A DNA stretch of 64,000 nt, from positions 1 to 64,000 of IMG/VR virus record IMGVR_UViG_3300035438_000194. One strand, written 5' to 3'. The DNA comes from a virus. The translations under genes were made by a program, and so were the position numbers. Below the pieces are notes generated by a model. The model saw only the letters and a program-made list of their open reading frames with translations. It ran no database searches and was not told the DNA's origin. This document shows, piece by piece, positions 4,525-13,584 of this stretch (position 1 is its first letter; every line of letters starts with the position of its first letter).

Positions 4525-4603
4525 AAGCCAGGGTGAGACTCGAACTCACAACGCACAACCATAAAGGGTGTGATACCATTTCCACATTACGTGCTACCTG
4601 ACT
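4525..4603 (-). ncRNA. tRNA-like element (non-canonical tRNA or tRNA mimic)
   Basis: 7-bp acceptor stem AGTCAGG/CCTGGCT and perfect T-arm GTGAG-TTCGAGT-CTCAC; D and anticodon arms irregular; no encoded CCA. Confidence 0.65.
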
Positions 4604-4703
4604 GGGTTACCCCGCGTCACCGTTGTATTTAACAGTAACTAAACTTAATTTGAGGACCGTTGTCCTTCCCGATGAAAAAAGTTGTGACGCGAGGTAGTAT
4701 TGT

Positions 4704-4871
4704 TTACCACTTGTTGTGTTTCTTATAACACTTGGAGGGCTTAGCATTGTGAGACTTCTTATGATGAGTCTTATAATCATACCCGTGTTGTGAACTTGAG
4801 CAGGAGGTTAACAATGCGACCAATGTGATTAGGGCAAAATACATTATGATGTACGCATTACTCTTCTTCAT
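4704..4871 (-). CDS. Small lipoprotein (55 aa, lipobox LTSC)
   Basis: Manual translation MKKSNAYIIMYFALITLVALLTSCSSSQHGYDYK...KHNKW*. Confidence 0.75.
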   Translation of the reverse strand: MKKSNAYIIMYFALITLVALLTSCSSSQHGYDYKTHHKKSHNAKPSKCYKKHNKW

Positions 4872-5025: not shown

Positions 5026-5061
5026 AAGGCTTTAGTTATTTATTAGCACTGAAAAAAATAT

Positions 5062-5090
5062 AAAAGGGACACCATTACAGCATCCCTTTT
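5062..5090 (-). terminator. Putative intrinsic terminator after the DUF2828 gene
   Basis: AAAAGGGA...TCCCTTTT inverted repeat followed by a T-run on the - strand. Confidence 0.6.
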
Positions 5091-5104
5091 AATATATGTA
5101 ACCA

Positions 5105-6508
5105 CTAATCCAACTTGATACAACTGTATCTATCAGAGTTAACGGTCTTTAGCATTACTGCTAACGGATTCAAATCATCACCACCTAATACAGACTTGAT
5201 AATGCTCGGACTATATCCGCTCACAAGTGCAGTGTTTGGTGTGTCAACCTTCACAGGTACATTACCCAATCTACCATTCACATTCCAAAAGATTATACCT
5301 GGCATCTGATAGCCTGCAGCAGCATACATACCCTTGATTGCATCAAAGTTAGTACGTCTATCACACGCTTGGTCAAACTCCATATCACTGATAATCAGTA
5401 ACTTGGTTGGCATATCTTCCTGTGATACTTTACCTGCAATTGCACGGTTAAGTAACACATTGAATGTCTTGAATAAGTCAGTGTTCATACCCCAATCTGC
5501 TTGACGTAGGTTAACTACTCTCTCTGCAAGAGTATTACCTTGTATCAGGCGGAACTGTGGACTCTCACTAAACGTCAATACTAAATCCTTGAAAGGACCT
5601 TCATTGCGTTCAGAGATATACAAACCTAACCCGATTGATACGTCCATTGGTGTACCCATCATACTACCTGATACATCACAGATTGGTAAGATACGCTCTG
5701 TACAACCTTCCATATAATTAGGTAAAGACTTCCACATAGCATCATATGCTGCTGCGTTAGACTCTTCACCCCAATTCATATTTGTGATCTTGTTAACAAT
5801 ATCACTTGGAAACAGTACCGAAGCGTTCATCTTCTGTTTACCTTCCATAACATCACTGATATAAGAACTGTATCTTACACCATCGTGCTTGGTAAAAGAG
5901 TTACTATATCTCTTTCCTGCAACAGATGGAACTGTACTATACTGAATAGTTTCCCATTCATTAGCACACATCTTCTGCTCAACAGTATTAGACATAGCAG
6001 TTAGTCTTCTACGGAAGGTACCCGCTGATACATTGAGGTACTTATGCATAGCAACAAACCATTCACCTTTACGGGGAAACCATTTGGCTAACAGATTAGC
6101 ATTCTCATTCTCCTTCAGTTGGTGGTCCAACCAATTAAGAGTATTATCACTCGGTCTTTCAATGATGAAGATGTCTTTCCAATAACCAAACACAGGTATA
6201 TGTATAGCAACTTGCTCATACACATCTGGGAATGATATCAAAAGACTTCTCATTATCACTTGGAAGAAACGCTTCTCACCTGCACCACCGCGTGCATCAC
6301 GTGCCCAAAATACTATCTTAAGAGCAGTAAGTTTATCTTCACGATAAGCCCTGATAAATGCTTTTATGATATCTTCTTCAGGCATAAAACGGCTCGCACC
6401 TGCTATAAAGAACAGGTCAATACAGAAATTACCCGCAGTACTATGTGTAACTGCTCCGTTATTGGTAAGACTGTCATTAGAAAACATTGCGTTGGTAAAA
6501 GTATCCAT
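5105..6508 (-). CDS. DUF2828-family protein (TROVE/Ro60-like helical domain + VWA domain)
   Basis: TNNGA, RDARGGAGEK, GYWKD, AKWFPR, MIDAS-type CDVSGSM, ISDMEFD and IIFWNV motifs; likelier start MDTFTN at 6508. Confidence 0.85.
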   Translation of the reverse strand: MDTFTNAMFSNDSLTNNGAVTHSTAGNFCIDLFFIAGASRFMPEEDIIKAFIRAYREDKLTALKIVFWARDARGGAGEKRFFQVIMRSLLISFPDVYEQVAIHIPVFGYWKDIFIIERPSDNTLNWLDHQLKENENANLLAKWFPRKGEWFVAMHKYLNVSAGTFRRRLTAMSNTVEQKMCANEWETIQYSTVPSVAGKRYSNSFTKHDGVRYSSYISDVMEGKQKMNASVLFPSDIVNKITNMNWGEESNAAAYDAMWKSLPNYMEGCTERILPICDVSGSMMGTPMDVSIGLGLYISERNEGPFKDLVLTFSESPQFRLIQGNTLAERVVNLRQADWGMNTDLFKTFNVLLNRAIAGKVSQEDMPTKLLIISDMEFDQACDRRTNFDAIKGMYAAAGYQMPGIIFWNVNGRLGNVPVKVDTPNTALVSGYSPSIIKSVLGGDDLNPLAVMLKTVNSDRYSCIKLD

Positions 6509-6573
6509 TGCTTTAAGGGTTTTGGTTAAACAAATTATGAGATTGGTAGGCCACGGTATCACTACTCGGCTTT

Positions 6574-6842
6574 GCACATACTACAGAATGAAGAGAGCCT
6601 AACAGTTAACTGTTGTGACCTACCATCTCGTTTTGCATTGTATTTTTTTTACAGTGCTGATTCATTCTTTAATGTGCGGGGTTATCTTATGCTAAACAGA
6701 ATAGTTGTTTAACCTTATTATAATTGTAGTTTTAATAGTGCTGAACTATACTTCACTAACATAAGACGGGTTGTAAAGATACAGAATGCAGTTTAACTTA
6801 CCATAGTTTTTTATAGTGCGGTTAACATTCTTCACTTTACAA
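6574..6842 (-). ncRNA. Three tandem structured RNA modules upstream of DUF2828
   Basis: Units 6574-6677, 6685-6766, 6771-6842: variable outer stem, internal loop, AGWAU/AUUCU inner stem, C(A/C)GCACU, AU-rich loop. Confidence 0.7.
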
Positions 6843-6936
6843 TAGGGTACGTGATAATCAGTAAAGGTGCAGGGGGCTACCCATTTTTTGAACCTTGCGG
6901 GTTTTTACCGCTTCTGCATTACCACAATATGAGTAG

Positions 6937-7101
6937 TTATAACATATCAAGAATCGGTAACTCATCATCTTCATCACTAATAACTTTGCGGTAGTTATCA
7001 TCATCACACATAAGAGAGTAAACAGAGTAGAAATCTAACTTACTAATAGAGGAGTAGACTATCAGAGCAGTAGGCTTATGTACTAATAGGTAGGTAATCA
7101 T
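6937..7101 (-). CDS. Small hypothetical protein (54 aa)
   Basis: Manual translation MITYLLVHKPTALIVYSS...DDELPILDML*. Confidence 0.5.
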   Translation of the reverse strand: MITYLLVHKPTALIVYSSISKLDFYSVYSLMCDDDNYRKVISDEDDELPILDML

Positions 7102-8595: not shown

Positions 8596-8892
8596 AGGTT
8601 AAAAAAGTTTAAAGGGTTAACATTAGAAGATTAAGGACTTTGAAAGCACAGGCAACACGCAGCGTCTCCCGCTAACCCCCGATATAGAAGGTGTGTGAGG
8701 TAGGAAAGAGGCTGTGTGTGTGCAGTTCATTAAGGACTTTGACGCAGAGGAGTAGTAGGTAAACCACCCTAACTTCCGCGCTTGGGCCACGGTAATACAA
8801 CAGGACAGAGCACCCACAACGGAGTACCCTGTCCAACACAGCAGGACCCCGATTAGAGTGCACTGCTGTGTTTGTTTTAGTAACGAGCCTTA

Positions 8893-9192
8893 TCAGAAGC
8901 AACCTACAACATTAGCAACAGTATCCGCAGATGACTGTCTCGCAAGTTGTGCTGCCTCCATAAGTTGAACTGATAAGAACTCGGTTGTGATAATCTCCTT
9001 GAAACTCTCAAGGGCATTGTCGCCATATTCACCACGGGCTATAGAATACAAGGCATTTGCGACATTGTCAGCCTTATTTCTGATACCAATGGTGTCAGGT
9101 TTGAAACTCAATAAGAGTTCCGTTAATAATGCAGAGTCAATTGACACTGCTTCTCTACCCGCGCAGGATAAGATTGGTTGGTCTTTTTTCAT
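8893..9192 (-). CDS. Small early hypothetical protein
   Basis: 99 aa; 12-mer 21 nt upstream. Confidence 0.75.
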   Translation of the reverse strand: MKKDQPILSCAGREAVSIDSALLTELLLSFKPDTIGIRNKADNVANALYSIARGEYGDNALESFKEIITTEFLSVQLMEAAQLARQSSADTVANVVGCF

Positions 9193-9247
9193 AACTTTAG
9201 TTTAGTTTAAATCATTAAGGACTTTGAGGACAGAGAGGAGGAAGGCC

Positions 9248-9481
9248 CTAAAGCCCACCATACATCTCACTGTAATCATCACCGTGCATATAGTCTATCT
9301 CATCTTCCATAAAGTTAGACTCAATGTTACCTATTGGTTTACGCACGGTAATAGGTTTGTTTGCTAACAGACCTTCATAGTAGGCAATTATGTGACCTAC
9401 ACTGATTCCGTTTAACACTTTACCGTCAAGTAAGTTAGTAAACTTACGCTCTGTTTCTTTTAACGCTGTTTCTTTGTCCAT
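9248..9481 (-). CDS. Small early hypothetical protein
   Basis: 77 aa; AT-rich leader, no 12-mer of its own. Confidence 0.7.
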   Translation of the reverse strand: MDKETALKETERKFTNLLDGKVLNGISVGHIIAYYEGLLANKPITVRKPIGNIESNFMEDEIDYMHGDDYSEMYGGL

Positions 9482-9524
9482 ATATAAGGTTTAAAAGTTT
9501 ACATAAGAAAGAGATAGCACAAGG

Positions 9525-9743
9525 TTACATACCCTGTGCTGTCTCATACGCAGATATTTCTGTTTCAATCTGCTCTTGGAAGTGTTCTGCAAGTCTTTCA
9601 AACCTGCGTATAACAGATACTGTTGCAAAGTCTTCTTCAAATGAGAGGGACTCGGCACTCTCACTTGCTAAATAGTCTCTGTCTGACTTGATTTCAGCCT
9701 GAATATAGGCTACTACTTCCATTAATACTGATGCTTTGTTCAT
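9525..9743 (-). CDS. Small acidic early protein
   Basis: 72 aa; 12-mer 16 nt upstream; stop inside a hairpin. Confidence 0.75.
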   Translation of the reverse strand: MNKASVLMEVVAYIQAEIKSDRDYLASESAESLSFEEDFATVSVIRRFERLAEHFQEQIETEISAYETAQGM

Positions 9744-9799
9744 ACTGTTATTTTGTTTGATTAAGGACTTTTAAAAGAAAAGCACAAGGGAGTTACCCC

Positions 9800-10012
9800 T
9801 TATGCCTGAACACCATAAGTGTCATCTTCAACCACCATTTCAATAAAGTCCTTGCTAATGAACTTGATTTCAATAGGCTCTATCAAACCTTTGCAGTATT
9901 GAAAGGTAGTAAGAGCATCAATGATGCTGTCACCTGCAACATAAAGAATTTCTTCTACACCTTTGTAAAGGTGATGCGGGTAAGTAATTAAGTACAAGTT
10001 TTTTGTTCTCAT
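9800..10012 (-). CDS. Small early hypothetical protein
   Basis: 70 aa; 12-mer 17 nt upstream. Confidence 0.75.
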   Translation of the reverse strand: MRTKNLYLITYPHHLYKGVEEILYVAGDSIIDALTTFQYCKGLIEPIEIKFISKDFIEMVVEDDTYGVQA

Positions 10013-10084
10013 ATTATTAGATTTGAACCATTAAGGACTTTGTATTAGATAAGAACACAGCCCCCTATTACGAGGGCTATGTTA

Positions 10085-10408
10085 TTAGTTTGACAATTCA
10101 GCAGCGTCAAGTTCCGCTTGAAGTTCATCAGTTACAGGCAGTGTGAATACAATATGTCCTGAACATACTTGCATTTTACCGTCTTTAACATAGAACCCAA
10201 TACCTGAAGTACACTTGTGCCCGTCAGGTTGAACAAGTACAACAGTGCAAGAATAGTGGTCCCAACCTACGAACTCCGTATCAAAGAAGATTGTGCCTTC
10301 TCTGTATACTGTCTTACGCAGTGGTCCAACTTCACCTGTTGGCGTTTCACCATAGTTGTCTGAACCTTCTTTAAAGGCTTTGATTGCAATTTCTGATAAG
10401 TTTTTCAT
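10085..10408 (-). CDS. Small early hypothetical protein
   Basis: 107 aa; 12-mer 24 nt upstream. Confidence 0.75.
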   Translation of the reverse strand: MKNLSEIAIKAFKEGSDNYGETPTGEVGPLRKTVYREGTIFFDTEFVGWDHYSCTVVLVQPDGHKCTSGIGFYVKDGKMQVCSGHIVFTLPVTDELQAELDAAELSN

Positions 10409-10466
10409 AATAAAAGGTATTAATTTTAAATCATTAAGGACTTTGTGCTAAAAGAAAACCACGGTG

Positions 10467-10670
10467 TTACCCGTGATTCTCCTGTGCACGCATCTCTCTC
10501 ACTTGGAATACAACTATCCAAGTGATAAAGGCGGTGATGATACCAAAGAATATGTTCATTGGTGTTGACAGCTCTCTTACTTCTTCATTACAGGTGAAGT
10601 TGATGATATACAAGATTGTAATAGCATCTAATAGAGCAATGATTGAGATGATGAGGGTGAATAGTCTCAT
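10467..10670 (-). CDS. Small two-TM membrane protein
   Basis: Likelier start MRLFTLII at 10670; two hydrophobic helices. Confidence 0.7.
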   Translation of the reverse strand: MRLFTLIISIIALLDAITILYIINFTCNEEVRELSTPMNIFFGIITAFITWIVVFQVREMRAQENHG

Positions 10671-10692
10671 AGGTTTATAATTGATTAAGAGT

Positions 10693-10845
10693 TTACCACC
10701 AATTGGTACCGCGAGAATTGTAGTTCCCGTTGTGTTTAGGTTGAAATGTATCGTGACAACTGTGTGTGGTTGCACAAGATGTGAGCATTGCTACTATTAA
10801 GATGGTTGCAATGTAGAGTAGAGCATAGGCTGTTGACTTTTTCAT
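10693..10845 (-). CDS. Small lipoprotein (50 aa, lipobox LTSC)
   Basis: Manual translation MKKSTAYALLYIATILIVAMLTSCATTHSCHDTFQPKHNGNYNSRGTNWW*; 12-mer 19 nt upstream. Confidence 0.8.
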   Translation of the reverse strand: MKKSTAYALLYIATILIVAMLTSCATTHSCHDTFQPKHNGNYNSRGTNWW

Positions 10846-10950
10846 AGGGTTATAATTTACATTGATTAAGGACTTTTGTGCTAACAGAGTAGTAGGCCAA
10901 AAGACCTAACTTCTGCCCTTGGGGCCCAGAGGCGCTAACACACCACGAGA

Positions 10951-11136
10951 TTAACTCTCGGGTGCATCAGCATTGCCAATGGCTTTATTAACAAGTAAGT
11001 TGAATAACAACTCACCCGTAGGTAAGATGTGTATTTCAAACTTCTTGATGTGACCTGTGGTCAACCAAGTGTTAATCTTCTGTTGCATCTTCTTGTGGTC
11101 TGCAACAGGAACTATTTCAAATTGAACTTTATACAT
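10951..11136 (-). CDS. Small early hypothetical protein
   Basis: 61 aa; 12-mer 17 nt upstream. Confidence 0.75.
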   Translation of the reverse strand: MYKVQFEIVPVADHKKMQQKINTWLTTGHIKKFEIHILPTGELLFNLLVNKAIGNADAPES

Positions 11137-11227
11137 AGGTTTACATTTGAATCATTAAGGACTTTTGTGAGCGTGAGTGGGAAGGAGAGAGGTGATAGTA
11201 AAAAATAGAAACCTACCACCCCTTCAA

Positions 11228-11377
11228 CTACTCTGTTATCTCATACCACGTGTCATCCTTCCGCACTACCTTATAGGTAATAGTTCCGTCTTCATTGAGT
11301 CTAACATCTCTAATGAAGTCACCGCGGAATCTCTTCTTGAGACCCGCGATGATTTGTGTTAGGCTGTTAACTCGCAT
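11228..11377 (-). CDS. Small hypothetical protein (49 aa)
   Basis: Manual translation MRVNSLTQIIAGLKKRFRGDFIRDVRLNEDGTITYKVVRKDDTWYEITE*; overlaps the end of the upstream gene. Confidence 0.6.
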   Translation of the reverse strand: MRVNSLTQIIAGLKKRFRGDFIRDVRLNEDGTITYKVVRKDDTWYEITE

Positions 11378-11553
11378 AACTTCTTCATCAAGTAAAGGTT
11401 ATACAGCAACAGGGCTTCCGCAGGTGCTTCAAACATTCTCTCAAATGATTGAGCATCAATAGGTTGCTTGGTTATAGTTGTATACAACTTGCAATTCAGG
11501 ACACATAGGTCTCTACGCTGTTTTGCAGTAAGCGTGATTTTCTCTTGTACCAT
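11359..11553 (-). CDS. Small early hypothetical protein
   Basis: Likelier start MVQEK at 11553, 15 nt after a 12-mer. Confidence 0.7.
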   Translation of the reverse strand: MVQEKITLTAKQRRDLCVLNCKLYTTITKQPIDAQSFERMFEAPAEALLLYNLYLMKKLCELTA

Positions 11554-11600
11554 ATTATATTTTAAACTATTAAGGACTTTATACAACAAGCATAAGCCCC

Positions 11601-11795
11601 CTAAGAAGGGAGCTCAGCTGTTGGTTCTATTCTGAAGGCAAAGCAGGTAAGGTCTCCGAAGTCTCCTTCAGAGAATTGCCATTTGATTGTCTCTGCTTTC
11701 TCAAGTGAATCGCAAATTGTTGAATGCGTCTCAATTGTTTCTTCTGCATCTCCTTCATAGGTGATGGCTGTCTTGTAAGTCAGTTTGTAGTGCAT
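11601..11795 (-). CDS. Small acidic early protein
   Basis: 64 aa; one-mismatch 12-mer 15 nt upstream. Confidence 0.75.
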   Translation of the reverse strand: MHYKLTYKTAITYEGDAEETIETHSTICDSLEKAETIKWQFSEGDFGDLTCFAFRIEPTAELPS

Positions 11796-11845
11796 AATGT
11801 TATTTCAATCATTAAGGATTTTACACACAAAAGAAAGGAAGAGGC

Positions 11846-12031
11846 CTAAGCCTCAACCTCATTACAACCATAGAGCTCAGCCTTCCGTTGGACTAACCTT
11901 GCCTCTACATCATCAAGCGCACTAATATAACCGTCAGAATATTCATCCATACCGTTGGCCCTAATATCTTCCCAGGTATTCTTAATAGCGTCCTTAACAA
12001 TAGCAATAGCCAAATCTAAATCTGTTTTCAT
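11846..12031 (-). CDS. Small early hypothetical protein
   Basis: Likelier start MKTDL at 12031, 16 nt after a 12-mer. Confidence 0.75.
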   Translation of the reverse strand: MKTDLDLAIAIVKDAIKNTWEDIRANGMDEYSDGYISALDDVEARLVQRKAELYGCNEVEA

Positions 12032-12076
12032 AATGTTATTTAAAAGCATTAAGGACTTTACAATCAGAGAACAGGG

Positions 12077-12304
12077 TTATTCACCCTGCTCATCTGTTGC
12101 ATTGAAGAACTCGAGTTCCCCACACTCACATAGGTTGTCATCATAAGTAAAGACTCCCGTCTCTAACCACTGATAGACTTCACCTTCACAAGCGTCATAC
12201 ACCCAATCATATTGGTTGTTAACATCAATGTGAATATTGTACAGCGGACCGTGCTGCTCCATTCTACCCGTCATAAGGTAGAAGATAATAAATAAAGACT
12301 TCAT
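12077..12304 (-). CDS. Small acidic early protein
   Basis: 75 aa; degenerate 12-mer upstream. Confidence 0.7.
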   Translation of the reverse strand: MKSLFIIFYLMTGRMEQHGPLYNIHIDVNNQYDWVYDACEGEVYQWLETGVFTYDDNLCECGELEFFNATDEQGE

Positions 12305-12458
12305 ACTATAAGGTTTAAATGATTACGGAGTTAAAACATATTACTTCCGCACCGTAGGTCCGCCTAAGTCTTCATTGAAGAGACCGCATATGGCAAGAGT
12401 TATCTCGGCTACCCTAGTCTGTAACAGACGCAGAAGTAATAGTTAAAGAAGAGAGAGG

Positions 12459-12662
12459 CTAAAAGCCCCCCTCTTGGTTCATCAACTTAGCCACGTGGCT
12501 TGGGTCAACAAAGCGTTTGGTTATCTTGAATGCTGCTGCAGGTGGACAGCTGTCAAGATATTGTTGCGCTAAGAATGCGCTATGTTTAGTGGTTGAAGTC
12601 CATTGAAGGCGTTCAACTTCTGTACCCTTGTGGTCAAGGATGTAAGCAAAGTAAAGTGTCAT
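12459..12662 (-). CDS. Small early hypothetical protein
   Basis: 67 aa; 12-mer 17 nt upstream. Confidence 0.75.
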   Translation of the reverse strand: MTLYFAYILDHKGTEVERLQWTSTTKHSAFLAQQYLDSCPPAAAFKITKRFVDPSHVAKLMNQEGGF

Positions 12663-12733
12663 ATCTGTTATTTGAATGCATTAAGGACTTTCCATCACGC
12701 TGAGAGAGCGAGGGGATTTCTCCCCCTCTCTCA

Positions 12734-12958
12734 TCACATCTTGTTGATGATACTTCTGATTTGAGTCAGTTGCTTTACAACATCAGGCTGTGCCTCTCTA
12801 AGTTCTTCAACAAGAATTTCATAGGCATCTTCAAGACCTCTGCGTACGCCCAATTGGAATTGTTCATCATCCTTTGGAAACGCGTTTATGCTAAGACGTC
12901 TTTCTTGTTGTTTGATTGCAGAATCAACCGTGAAGGTTGCAATAAGTAAATGGTTCAT
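12734..12958 (-). CDS. Small early hypothetical protein
   Basis: Likelier start MNHLL at 12958, 18 nt after a 12-mer. Confidence 0.75.
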   Translation of the reverse strand: MNHLLIATFTVDSAIKQQERRLSINAFPKDDEQFQLGVRRGLEDAYEILVEELREAQPDVVKQLTQIRSIINKM

Positions 12959-13011
12959 AGTATTATATTTGAATTGATTAAGGACTTTACTATACAATCA
13001 AATGAACCCCC

Positions 13012-13251
13012 TTAGAAAGGAGGTCCATCTGGAAATGATGCAGCCCAACGCTCAGCATCACGTTGCTTTTGGTGTTCAGTGTTACACTTAGGACAATAGT
13101 CTTCAAAGCCAACTATCTCATAGTTATCAGTGACTATTGGGTCAAACTCTTGGCCTGTCTCATCAAAGTCGTGATAGATAACCACAGGCTTCTTGATGAA
13201 GTTTGTTTCTTCTTGCATGCAGCATAGGCATATTGAACTTTCTGTTTGCAT
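13012..13251 (-). CDS. Small early protein with two Cys clusters (possible Zn-binding)
   Basis: Likelier start MQTES at 13251, 18 nt after a 12-mer; CLCC...CPKC. Confidence 0.7.
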   Translation of the reverse strand: MQTESSICLCCMQEETNFIKKPVVIYHDFDETGQEFDPIVTDNYEIVGFEDYCPKCNTEHQKQRDAERWAASFPDGPPF

Positions 13252-13584
13252 AATGTTGTTATTTAACTCATTAAGGACTTTCATACATATACATCTCTGC
13301 CTCGCTCGCTCCCTCCCTCCTCTCTCTGTGCTTGTGCTTGGCTCGTTGTTCCTGGCCACGTCAGACCATCCATCTCACTCAGACCACAAACTTTCTTCTG
13401 CCACAGCTTTTTTTTGCAACATCTGTCTAATAGGTAAATTGAGCCTTGCCATTTGATAGGGGGTACCACCCTTTGGAAAGTTTTGCCGGGGATTGTTTTG
13501 GATCCACCCATTACATCCTCTCACACAGTAAAAATCCCCCACACCAGATCAGCCCAGGGGTGTCCCGATAAACCTTACTACCCG

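What the first reader, a model, noticed from the sequence alone, without database searches (positions are those of the whole stretch)
6574..6842. Three-unit RNA array with covarying stems and a conserved C(A/C)GCACU motif
Minus-strand reads. Unit A: UUGUAAAG-UGA-AGAAUG-UUAACCGCACU-loop-CAUUCU-GUAU-CUUUACAA. Unit B: UCUUAUGUUA-GUGA-AGUAUAGUU-CAGCACU-loop-AACUAUUCU-GUU-UAGCAUAAGA. Unit C: GCACAU-UAA-AGAAUGAA-UCAGCACU-loop-UUCAUUCU-GUAGU-AUGUGC. The outer stems differ completely in sequence yet all pair, while the internal loop (URA/GU), inner stem and GCACU are kept and the AU-rich loops differ. This points to selection on RNA structure with a protein-recognition motif and a variable payload loop.
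Basis: seen in the sequence. Interest (0 to 1): 0.85.

Follow-up and report, generated by a model that had tools for sequence, protein, structure and literature searches.

The report
Phage Ro60-like protein's partner RNAs
Three small folded RNAs sit in a row just ahead of a phage gene for a ring-shaped Ro60-like RNA-binding protein; the same RNA "handle" lies beside this gene in very different phages, so they are most likely its partner RNAs, a little-described cousin of the Ro60/Y-RNA particle.

Summary
The three minus-strand units (6842-6771, 6767-6684, 6677-6574) exist as described. Ten related viral contigs keep them, with compensatory changes.

They lie directly upstream of gene 6508-5105. 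That gene matches Pfam DUF2828 and DUF7788, and its model matches solved Ro60 structures (TROVE ring plus vWA).

A covariance model of the inner hairpin gave these results:
- In the complete 113.8-kb phage it finds only these three units.
- In 48 sources it finds 69 matches, all on the Ro-like gene's strand and all in the fetched stretches around it.
- The loci come from Listeria, Staphylococcus, Felix O1-like, Vibrio and mycobacterial phages, among others.
- T4 and T5, where no DUF2828 match was found, have no credible match.

In one relative the same helix encloses a tRNA-like domain that matches Rfam YrlA below its cut-off. There it sits where YrlA has its proposed Ro-binding stem.

Best reading (about 0.7): these are Y-RNA-like partner RNAs of the phage Ro60-like protein. 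Binding is inferred, not shown.

Its interior pairs with the mRNA leader about 35 nt before the start codon.

The units fail the sequence tests for Y RNA and YrlA. They resemble the Class I RNAs of social amoebae.

This scan has already noted the same pairing on DNA from at least 78 other genomes. I found no paper or Rfam family describing these RNAs.

The parts
6771..6842 (-). Unit A. 8-bp outer stem, internal loop, inner 'handle' helix (AAG start at 6832-6830, 3' strand and CUGU at 6788-6781). Motif variant CCGCAC at 6821-6816. Short hairpin in the loop.
   Evidence: Sequence. Fold, z -4.5. Model R1 match 6780-6834, 53.3 bits. Orthologues in 8 contigs.
6684..6767 (-). Unit B. 12-bp outer stem with 3 G-U pairs, handle helix with one U-U mismatch, motif CAGCAC, AU-rich loop.
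   Evidence: R1 match 6695-6755, 28.5 bits. Compensatory outer-stem changes in L004-L006, and a wholly different stem in L010.
6574..6677 (-). Unit C. 6-bp outer stem, 8-bp handle helix (6668-6661), motif CAGCAC (6659-6654), a hairpin right after the motif, and a 64-nt interior. The interior holds the 5' strands of two long-range helices (6624-6615 and 6599-6596).
   Evidence: R1 match 6582-6671, 31.8 bits.
6539..6573 (-). Leader extension of unit C. It holds the 3' strand of the short helix (6571-6568), a GNRA-tetraloop hairpin (6567-6555), and the 3' strand of the 10-bp long-range helix (6554-6545) with a further possible 5 bp (6543-6539). This either crosses the unit C hairpin as a pseudoknot or is an alternative fold.
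   Evidence: Pair tables in 11 clade members show U-A, U-G and C-G at one pair, and a covarying hairpin base. An equivalent 10-13-bp helix ends 33-42 nt before the ATG in 12 loci of four sequence classes.
5105..6508 (-). Gene for a 467-aa Ro60-like protein: a TROVE-like helical-repeat ring plus a vWA domain with the DxSxS metal-site motif. It is the proposed protein partner of the RNAs.
   Evidence: Pfam DUF7788 (2.3e-53) and DUF2828 (1.9e-31). PHROG 850 'RNA-binding protein'. AlphaFold model pLDDT 88.6. Foldseek top hits are Ro60 structures 9kop, 1yvr and 2i91, E 2.6e-8 to 1e-5. D278, S280 and S282 are invariant.
5061..5091 (-). Terminator-like hairpin with a T run just after the gene. None lies between the units and the gene, so the array and gene are probably one transcript.

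Best explanation
The three units are small non-coding RNAs that partner the Ro60-like (DUF2828-type) protein encoded right after them. They are probably transcribed with the gene and cut out of that transcript.

Each carries the same 'handle':
- an A, then a 6-9-bp helix that starts AG and ends CU, then an invariant G;
- the motif CAGCA(C/A) one to four bases after the 5' strand;
- A-rich single strands at both ends of the loop.

The ring protein is inferred to bind this handle, as Ro60 binds the conserved stem of Y RNAs. The different loops and outer stems would give each RNA its own role: gating the ring, or tethering it to host RNA decay or repair enzymes, as Y RNA tethers Rsr to PNPase.

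Unit C in addition folds together with the mRNA leader. It may therefore also let the protein feed back on its own mRNA.

Shown: the structure, its conservation, and the strict association with the gene in position and strand. Inferred: binding, processing and downstream function.
For: 1. The protein has the Ro60 fold.
2. Model R1 finds only these three units in the complete phage genome.
3. R1 gives 69 of 69 matches on the gene's strand across 48 sources.
4. In whole genomes of five unrelated phages the best matches abut the Ro-like gene, either upstream or downstream. Only two matches at E below 0.01 lie further off, 7 kb upstream in V09 and about 40 kb away in HY02.
5. T4 has no match and T5 only two partial ones at E 0.1.
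6. The neighbouring genes differ between these phages, so the shared neighbour is the Ro-like gene, often with tRNA genes.
7. In L037 the handle helix encloses a permuted tRNA-like domain that matches Rfam YrlA at 49 bits, below the cut-off of 69. The handle therefore occupies the place of YrlA's proposed Ro-binding stem.
8. Mycobacteriophage Moostard has a sub-threshold YrlA match (37.9 bits) flanked by weak handle matches beside its 'Ro-like' gene.
9. Published precedent: Y RNAs are encoded within 4 kb of Ro60 on the same strand in bacteria and phages (PMC4201824). Thermus phage Ro60 binds two upstream Y-like RNAs and host PNPase (PMC12135203). A Listeria phage shows highly abundant RNAs upstream of its Rsr-like gene (PMC12282133), and I find three handle units in the related phage LMSP-25.
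Against: - No binding, expression or processing data exist for this phage.
- The units lack the published Ro-binding motifs (GGUCCGA, GNCGAA) and match no Rfam family.
- The Ro-like protein is only a remote structural relative of Ro60: 10-16% identity, TM 0.5-0.65.
- The association is also with tRNA clusters in several phages, so another shared factor could read the handle.
- R1 scores for units B and C are modest (28-32 bits).
Confidence: 0.7

Rival explanations
1. The units are cis-acting leader elements of the Ro-like mRNA, such as an operator or RNA switch. They would control its translation or stability rather than act as free small RNAs.
For: - The array is directly upstream with no terminator in between.
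- Unit C's interior pairs with the leader at a fixed distance from the ATG in 12 loci.
- In L014-L016 a leader segment has two conserved alternative partners.
Against: - In Felix O1-like, Staphylococcus, mycobacterial and many T4-like phages the same units lie downstream of the gene or among tRNA genes, where they cannot be its leader.
- Units A and B are self-contained, closed by their own outer stems.
- This reading may still hold for unit C alone, and it is compatible with the best explanation.
Confidence: 0.12
2. The hairpins are processing or punctuation signals read by a host RNase or another factor. On this view they mark cleavage sites in polycistronic tRNA and small-RNA transcripts and have nothing to do with the Ro-like protein.
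For: - In HY02 the units are interleaved with tRNA genes.
- C-rich spacers follow the outer stems in the window clade.
- A hammerhead-like ribozyme sits in the same intergenic array in L041.
Against: - T4 and T5, both with tRNA clusters and no DUF2828 match found, lack the units.
- An invariant six-base motif plus an invariant G across hosts from Listeria to Bacteroidota-type phages is unlike a signal for host enzymes that differ between these hosts.
Confidence: 0.08
3. The units are base-pairing guide or regulatory RNAs whose variable loops target host or phage transcripts.
For: The loops differ completely between the three paralogous units while the scaffold is shared.
Against: - The longest antisense match of each loop to the phage genome is 12 nt, the same as shuffled loops.
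- The loops are largely folded into hairpins and are conserved among orthologues.
- The host is unknown, so host targets are untested.
Confidence: 0.06
4. The repeats act at the DNA level, for example as protein-binding iterons or a mobile repeat.
For: They form a tandem arrangement of similar units.
Against: - Covariation keeps pairing rather than sequence.
- G-U pairs, three in unit B's outer stem, would be A-C mismatches on the other strand.
- The orientation always follows the gene.
- There are no copies elsewhere in the genome.
Confidence: 0.02

Closest known systems
Ro60 (Rsr) with Y RNAs, including bacterial and mycobacteriophage YrlA/YrlB (Rfam RF02553; PMC4201824) and Thermus phage phiLo Ro60 with Yrl1/Yrl2 (PMC12135203)
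   Same: - A ring protein of TROVE plus vWA fold.
- Small RNAs encoded within a few hundred bases on the same strand, often several per locus.
- A terminal stem with conserved bases plus a variable module.
- Some family members carry a tRNA-like domain that matches YrlA below its cut-off.
- Neighbours include tRNA genes and, in the Listeria phage LMSP-25, a gene annotated 'tRNA splicing ligase'.
   Different: - The protein matches DUF2828 and DUF7788, not the TROVE Pfam model.
- The RNA stem motif is different: there is no GGUCCGA or GNCGAA.
- The window's three units have no tRNA-like domain and no Rfam match.
Class I RNAs of dictyostelid social amoebae (PMC7919456; search pattern in PMC5054030)
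   Same: - Starts with AAG and ends with CUGU.
- A 6-bp terminal stem whose sequence varies by compensatory change.
- A conserved 11-nt motif (CCUUACAGCAA in D. discoideum) right after the 5' strand.
- A variable remainder, about 60 nt in all, and many paralogous copies.
- The phage family consensus fits these points.
   Different: - Class I RNAs are eukaryotic and expressed from their own DUSE promoters.
- Their known binding protein is an RRM protein.
- The window's units end the motif in C, not A. Unit A has C at the second motif base, and the U at motif position 3 is not kept in units B and C.
- They also carry an extra outer stem.
- Homology is not shown.
CAGCAA-hairpin arrays beside DUF2828 genes noted earlier by this scan in giant viruses, phages and bacteria
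   Same: The same protein family, the same handle and the same tandem arrangement. My model, built here independently, recovers this pattern in the loci I fetched.
   Different: These are unpublished AI notes, not an established family. This window is a crAss-like phage, with the CAGCAC variant, two-tier stems, and a last unit knotted into the mRNA leader.

Membership tests
Y RNA / YrlA (Rfam RF00019, RF02553) | Encoded near a Ro60 orthologue, on the same strand | tested here: met
   The units end 66 nt before the start of a gene with a Ro60-like fold, on the same strand. This holds in all 48 sources searched.
Y RNA / YrlA (Rfam RF00019, RF02553) | Terminal stem with the Ro-binding motif (GGUCCGA in animals, GNCGAAN0-1G in bacteria) | tested here: not met
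   No such motif occurs in units A-C. Rfam gives no Y_RNA or YrlA match even at E up to 10.
Y RNA / YrlA (Rfam RF00019, RF02553) | tRNA-like domain (T and D arms) in at least one RNA of the locus | tested here: not met
   ARAGORN and Rfam find nothing in 6400-7100. Relatives do have it: L037 at 49 bits, L057 at 38 bits and L038 at 34 bits, all below the cut-off of 69. A non-canonical tRNA-like element lies downstream at 4525-4603, with no Rfam match.
Y RNA / YrlA (Rfam RF00019, RF02553) | Physically bound by the Ro60 protein | not testable with these tools
   Needs pull-down or gel-shift assays.
Ro60 / TROVE protein family (for the neighbouring gene) | Helical-repeat ring plus vWA domain with a MIDAS motif | tested here: met
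   The model (pLDDT 88.6) aligns over its full length to 9kop, 1yvr, 2i91 and 2nvo. DxSxS is invariant. The sequence-level TROVE Pfam model was not matched.
Dictyostelid Class I RNA | AAG start, CUGU end, and a 6-bp terminal stem kept by compensatory change | tested here: met
   All three units read AAG-helix...helix-CUGU. Family-wide pairing is 97.4%. Features are as stated in PMC7919456.
Dictyostelid Class I RNA | 11-nt motif with U3, C6, C9, A10 and A11 next to the 5' strand | tested here: inconclusive
   The family consensus fits. The window's units keep C6, C9 and A10 but have C at position 11, and position 3 is U only in unit A.
Dictyostelid Class I RNA | DUSE promoter about 60 nt upstream; restricted to Dictyostelia | tested here: not met
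   This is a phage locus, and the units are spaced 5-10 nt apart with no room for separate promoters.

The most novel reading that the evidence does not exclude
DUF2828-type ring proteins and AAG-stem-motif-CUGU handle RNAs form an undescribed, very widespread branch of the Ro60/Y-RNA ribonucleoprotein. It is shared by crAss-like, T4-like, Felix O1-like, Listeria, Staphylococcus and mycobacterial phages. It would also be homologous to the Class I RNAs of social amoebae. That would give those orphan RNAs a candidate protein partner and a testable function.
Probability: 0.35. Interest if true: 0.85.

Novelty: new variant of a known kind. Interest (0 to 1): 0.7.

Why it matters
Ro60 and Y RNAs are a classic RNA-surveillance particle, but the bacterial and phage side is known from few cases, all with YrlA-type RNAs. 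Here a divergent Ro60-like protein, found by tblastn in 706 deposited phage records, turns out to travel with its own recognisable RNA handle.

This has three practical consequences:
- The partner RNAs become predictable from sequence.
- The particle becomes easy to test in cultured phages such as Felix O1-like, P100-like and Staphylococcus phages.
- It offers a lead on what abundant phage small RNAs do during infection.

The likeness to Dictyostelium Class I RNAs, unexplained for twenty years, is a second reason for interest.

This window adds a two-tier version of the RNA. It also adds a last unit that is knotted into the protein's own mRNA leader, which hints at feedback control.

Tried and rejected
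- Rfam at gathering and at permissive thresholds on the window: nothing relevant.
- tRNA search: none in the window.
- DNA similarity of the region to deposited phages: none.
- Sequence search of the protein against solved structures: nothing. Only the fold search worked.
- MAFFT alignments of whole units mis-register the stems, because loop sizes differ, so RNAalifold found only 6 pairs. I had to pick 17 units of equal geometry to build the model.
- Kink-turn reading of the internal loop: rejected, because the 3' strand lacks the G-A step.
- T4-type late-promoter reading of the A-rich stretch after the motif: rejected, because the box is not kept across the family.
- Sigma-70 promoter scan: no more sites than in shuffles.
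- Sense versus antisense folding energy does not tell the strands apart: mean difference -0.16 kcal/mol.
- Antisense targets of the loops in the phage genome: chance level. A first script for this timed out.
- The 12-mer repeat noted upstream by another reader does not precede the array.
- The tRNA-like element downstream of the gene is not kept in close relatives.
- Literature searches for DUF2828, for Ro-like phage RNAs and for the motif found no description of these RNAs.

Full report
**Observation**

- Each unit folds that way on its own. The z-scores against dinucleotide shuffles are -4.5, -1.7 and -3.1.
- Rfam has no match at any threshold, and there is no tRNA.

**The neighbouring gene**

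The units end 66 nt before the ATG (6508) of a 467-aa gene.
- It matches Pfam DUF7788 and DUF2828, and PHROG 850 'RNA-binding protein'.
- tblastn finds relatives in 706 deposited phage records. Some are annotated 'Ro-like RNA binding protein' in mycobacteriophages.
- I aligned 30 homologues (the DxSxS metal site is invariant) and obtained a model with pLDDT 88.6.
- The model's best matches among solved structures are Ro60 proteins. They include the Thermus phage Ro60 (9kop) and Xenopus Ro60 with RNA (1yvp, 2i91), at E 2.6e-8 to 1e-5 and TM 0.5-0.65.
- The gene therefore encodes a remote Ro60-like ring protein.

**Conservation of the three units**

Fifty viral contigs encode relatives of the protein.
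- A sequence-only pattern finds units A, B and C upstream of the gene in the ten closest contigs (76-87% protein identity), and one unit in L016.
- Outer stems are present in all copies. Compensatory changes include L009 unit C (A-U to G-C), L004-L006 unit B, and a completely different 12-bp stem in L010 unit B.
- Units A and B are 83-92% identical to their orthologues, while the coding gene is 75-87% identical at the DNA level.

**A family, not a local oddity**

More distant loci carry simpler hairpins with the same core.
- I built covariance model R1 from 17 units of equal geometry, with a 7-bp helix.
- Over 397 kb, both strands, it gave 69 matches at E up to 1. All were on the strand of the Ro-like gene and inside the fetched stretches around it, upstream or downstream. 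Many were not in the training set.
- On the resulting alignment 97.4% of helix cells pair, all seven pairs show double changes, and no shuffle or slid control comes close. The alignment leans towards the model.
- The consensus is an A, a helix beginning AG and ending CU, an invariant G, the invariant CAGCA followed by A or C, and A-rich flanks inside the loop.

**Specificity**

- In the window's own complete genome (113,846 bp, terminal repeats) R1 finds only units A, B and C.
- In whole genomes of Listeria phage LMSP-25, Escherichia phage HY02, Staphylococcus phage BE02, Vibrio phage V09 and mycobacteriophage Moostard, the best matches abut the Ro-like gene. Only two matches at E below 0.01 lie further off, 7 kb upstream in V09 and about 40 kb away in HY02.
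- T4 has none, and T5 has only two partial matches at E 0.1. Both have tRNA clusters and no DUF2828 match, although that Pfam search did not ring in its controls either.
- The other neighbours differ from phage to phage.

**Link to Y RNAs**

- In L037 the handle helix encloses an anticodon-like hairpin, a T arm, an acceptor-like hairpin and a D arm. This stretch matches Rfam YrlA at 49 bits, E 5e-10, below the cut-off of 69. The handle thus stands where YrlA has its proposed Ro-binding stem.
- Moostard and L038 also have sub-threshold YrlA matches beside the gene.
- Published work places Y RNAs within 4 kb of Ro60 on the same strand in more than 250 bacteria and 22 phages (PMC4201824).
- It also shows a phage Ro60 binding two upstream Y-like RNAs and host PNPase (PMC12135203).
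- In a P100-like Listeria phage, very abundant RNAs arise upstream of the Rsr-like gene, and that protein was detected in virions (PMC12282133). I find three handle units in the 396-nt gap before the homologous gene of LMSP-25.

**Unit C is bigger than reported**

- Its interior (6624-6615) pairs with 6554-6545 in the leader, with a further possible 5 bp.
- A second short helix (6599-6596 with 6571-6568) and a GNRA hairpin (6567-6555) lie between.
- Within the clade one pair runs U-A, U-G, C-G, and the hairpin base covaries.
- In L014-L016, L041 and L051 the sequences are quite different. An equivalent 10-13-bp helix still ends 33-42 nt before the ATG, so 12 loci in four sequence classes keep it. 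Single-locus shuffle p values are 0.003-0.09.
- These helices cross the unit C hairpin, so this is either a pseudoknot or an alternative fold. I cannot tell which.

**Mechanism**

Shown:
- The RNAs are structured and under selection.
- They keep a fixed orientation and position relative to a Ro60-fold gene.

Inferred:
- The protein binds the handle.
- The RNAs are cut from a common transcript. No terminator lies between them and the gene, and one follows the gene.
- The different bodies give different roles, by analogy with Y RNA gating Ro60 and tethering it to PNPase.

The loops show no above-chance antisense match in the phage genome. I therefore do not favour a guide function.

**Comparison with known families**

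- The units fail the sequence-defined tests for Y RNA and YrlA. I file them as working like Y RNAs, not as members.
- Earlier notes of this scan pointed to Dictyostelium Class I RNAs, and I checked the papers. Class I RNAs start AAG and end CUGU. They have a 6-bp terminal stem that varies by compensatory change, and an 11-nt motif next to the 5' strand (PMC7919456). The D. discoideum search pattern is given in PMC5054030.
- The phage family consensus fits this closely. The window's units differ at the last motif base and carry an extra outer stem.
- Whether this is homology or convergence is open. I did not test whether dictyostelids encode DUF2828.

**Context**

- The phage is a distant relative of crAss-like phages by its portal protein and has standard head and packaging genes.
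- The scan has noted the same protein-RNA pairing on DNA from at least 78 other genomes.
- My searches found no paper or Rfam family that describes these RNAs.

**Verdict**

This is a real, strongly supported structured-RNA array. It is most likely the partner RNAs of a phage Ro60-like protein: a new variant of the Ro60/Y-RNA kind, with an interesting possible tie to Class I RNAs.

Noticed in passing
L014 2358-2480 and 2686-2790; L015 2648-2790; L016 2150-2305; L041 2487-2587: A second conserved structured element shares the intergenic region with the handle units in more distant loci. It has a 5-bp closing helix, a small hairpin, and a long variable arm closed by a conserved 9-bp helix, followed by a G-rich tail. 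No Rfam family matches it at gathering score.
   Followed up: partly
L041 2566-2651: A hammerhead ribozyme core lies directly after that element. It matches Rfam RAGATH-1 hammerhead at 35.5 bits (cut-off 56.3), E 3.5e-4 in a 600-nt search. A self-cleaving ribozyme inside the array would fit processing of a long precursor.
   Followed up: partly
L002 4395-4637 (Cronobacter phage LPCS28, downstream of its Ro-like gene): Two tRNA-like genes score 57 and 41 bits as tRNA but carry 52-55-nt insertions in the anticodon arm that contain the handle motif. A third RNA (4654-4788) has the handle helix around T-arm and D-arm-like hairpins. The record annotates none of them.
   Followed up: partly
L054 1970-2521 (Listeria phage LMSP-25): A ROOL RNA match (88.5 bits, just under the cut-off of 99.1; E 1.9e-16) lies about 1 kb upstream of the Ro-like gene. 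It may be one of the highly transcribed regions reported for the related phage CKA15.
   Followed up: no
window 4525-4696 (-): Downstream of the gene and two small ORFs lie two elements: a 13-bp stem enclosing about 60 nt, then a tRNA-like element with a 7-bp acceptor-like stem and a canonical T arm. ARAGORN and Rfam do not call it, and it is not found in the close relatives' fetched flanks.
   Followed up: partly
window 6843-6936 (-): The 90-nt spacer between a conserved 54-aa ORF (7101-6937) and unit A folds into a hairpin-rich structure. It is not conserved in relatives, and its function is unknown.
   Followed up: no
window 8630-13281 (-): The 12-mer AAAGTCCTTAAT occurs 13 times exactly, all on the minus strand, in the small-gene block upstream. 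No copy lies between that block and the RNA array.
   Followed up: partly
L039 1689-2084; L017 349-2532; L055 5040-7924: The Ro-like gene often sits beside a phage tmRNA gene (L039) or large tRNA arrays (L017, HY02). In HY02 the handle units are interleaved with tRNA genes that the record does not annotate.
   Followed up: partly
L014-L016, leader between the last unit and the ATG: One leader segment can pair either with the interior of the last unit or with a following segment. Both pairings are kept by compensatory changes between L014 and L015, which looks like an RNA switch.
   Followed up: no
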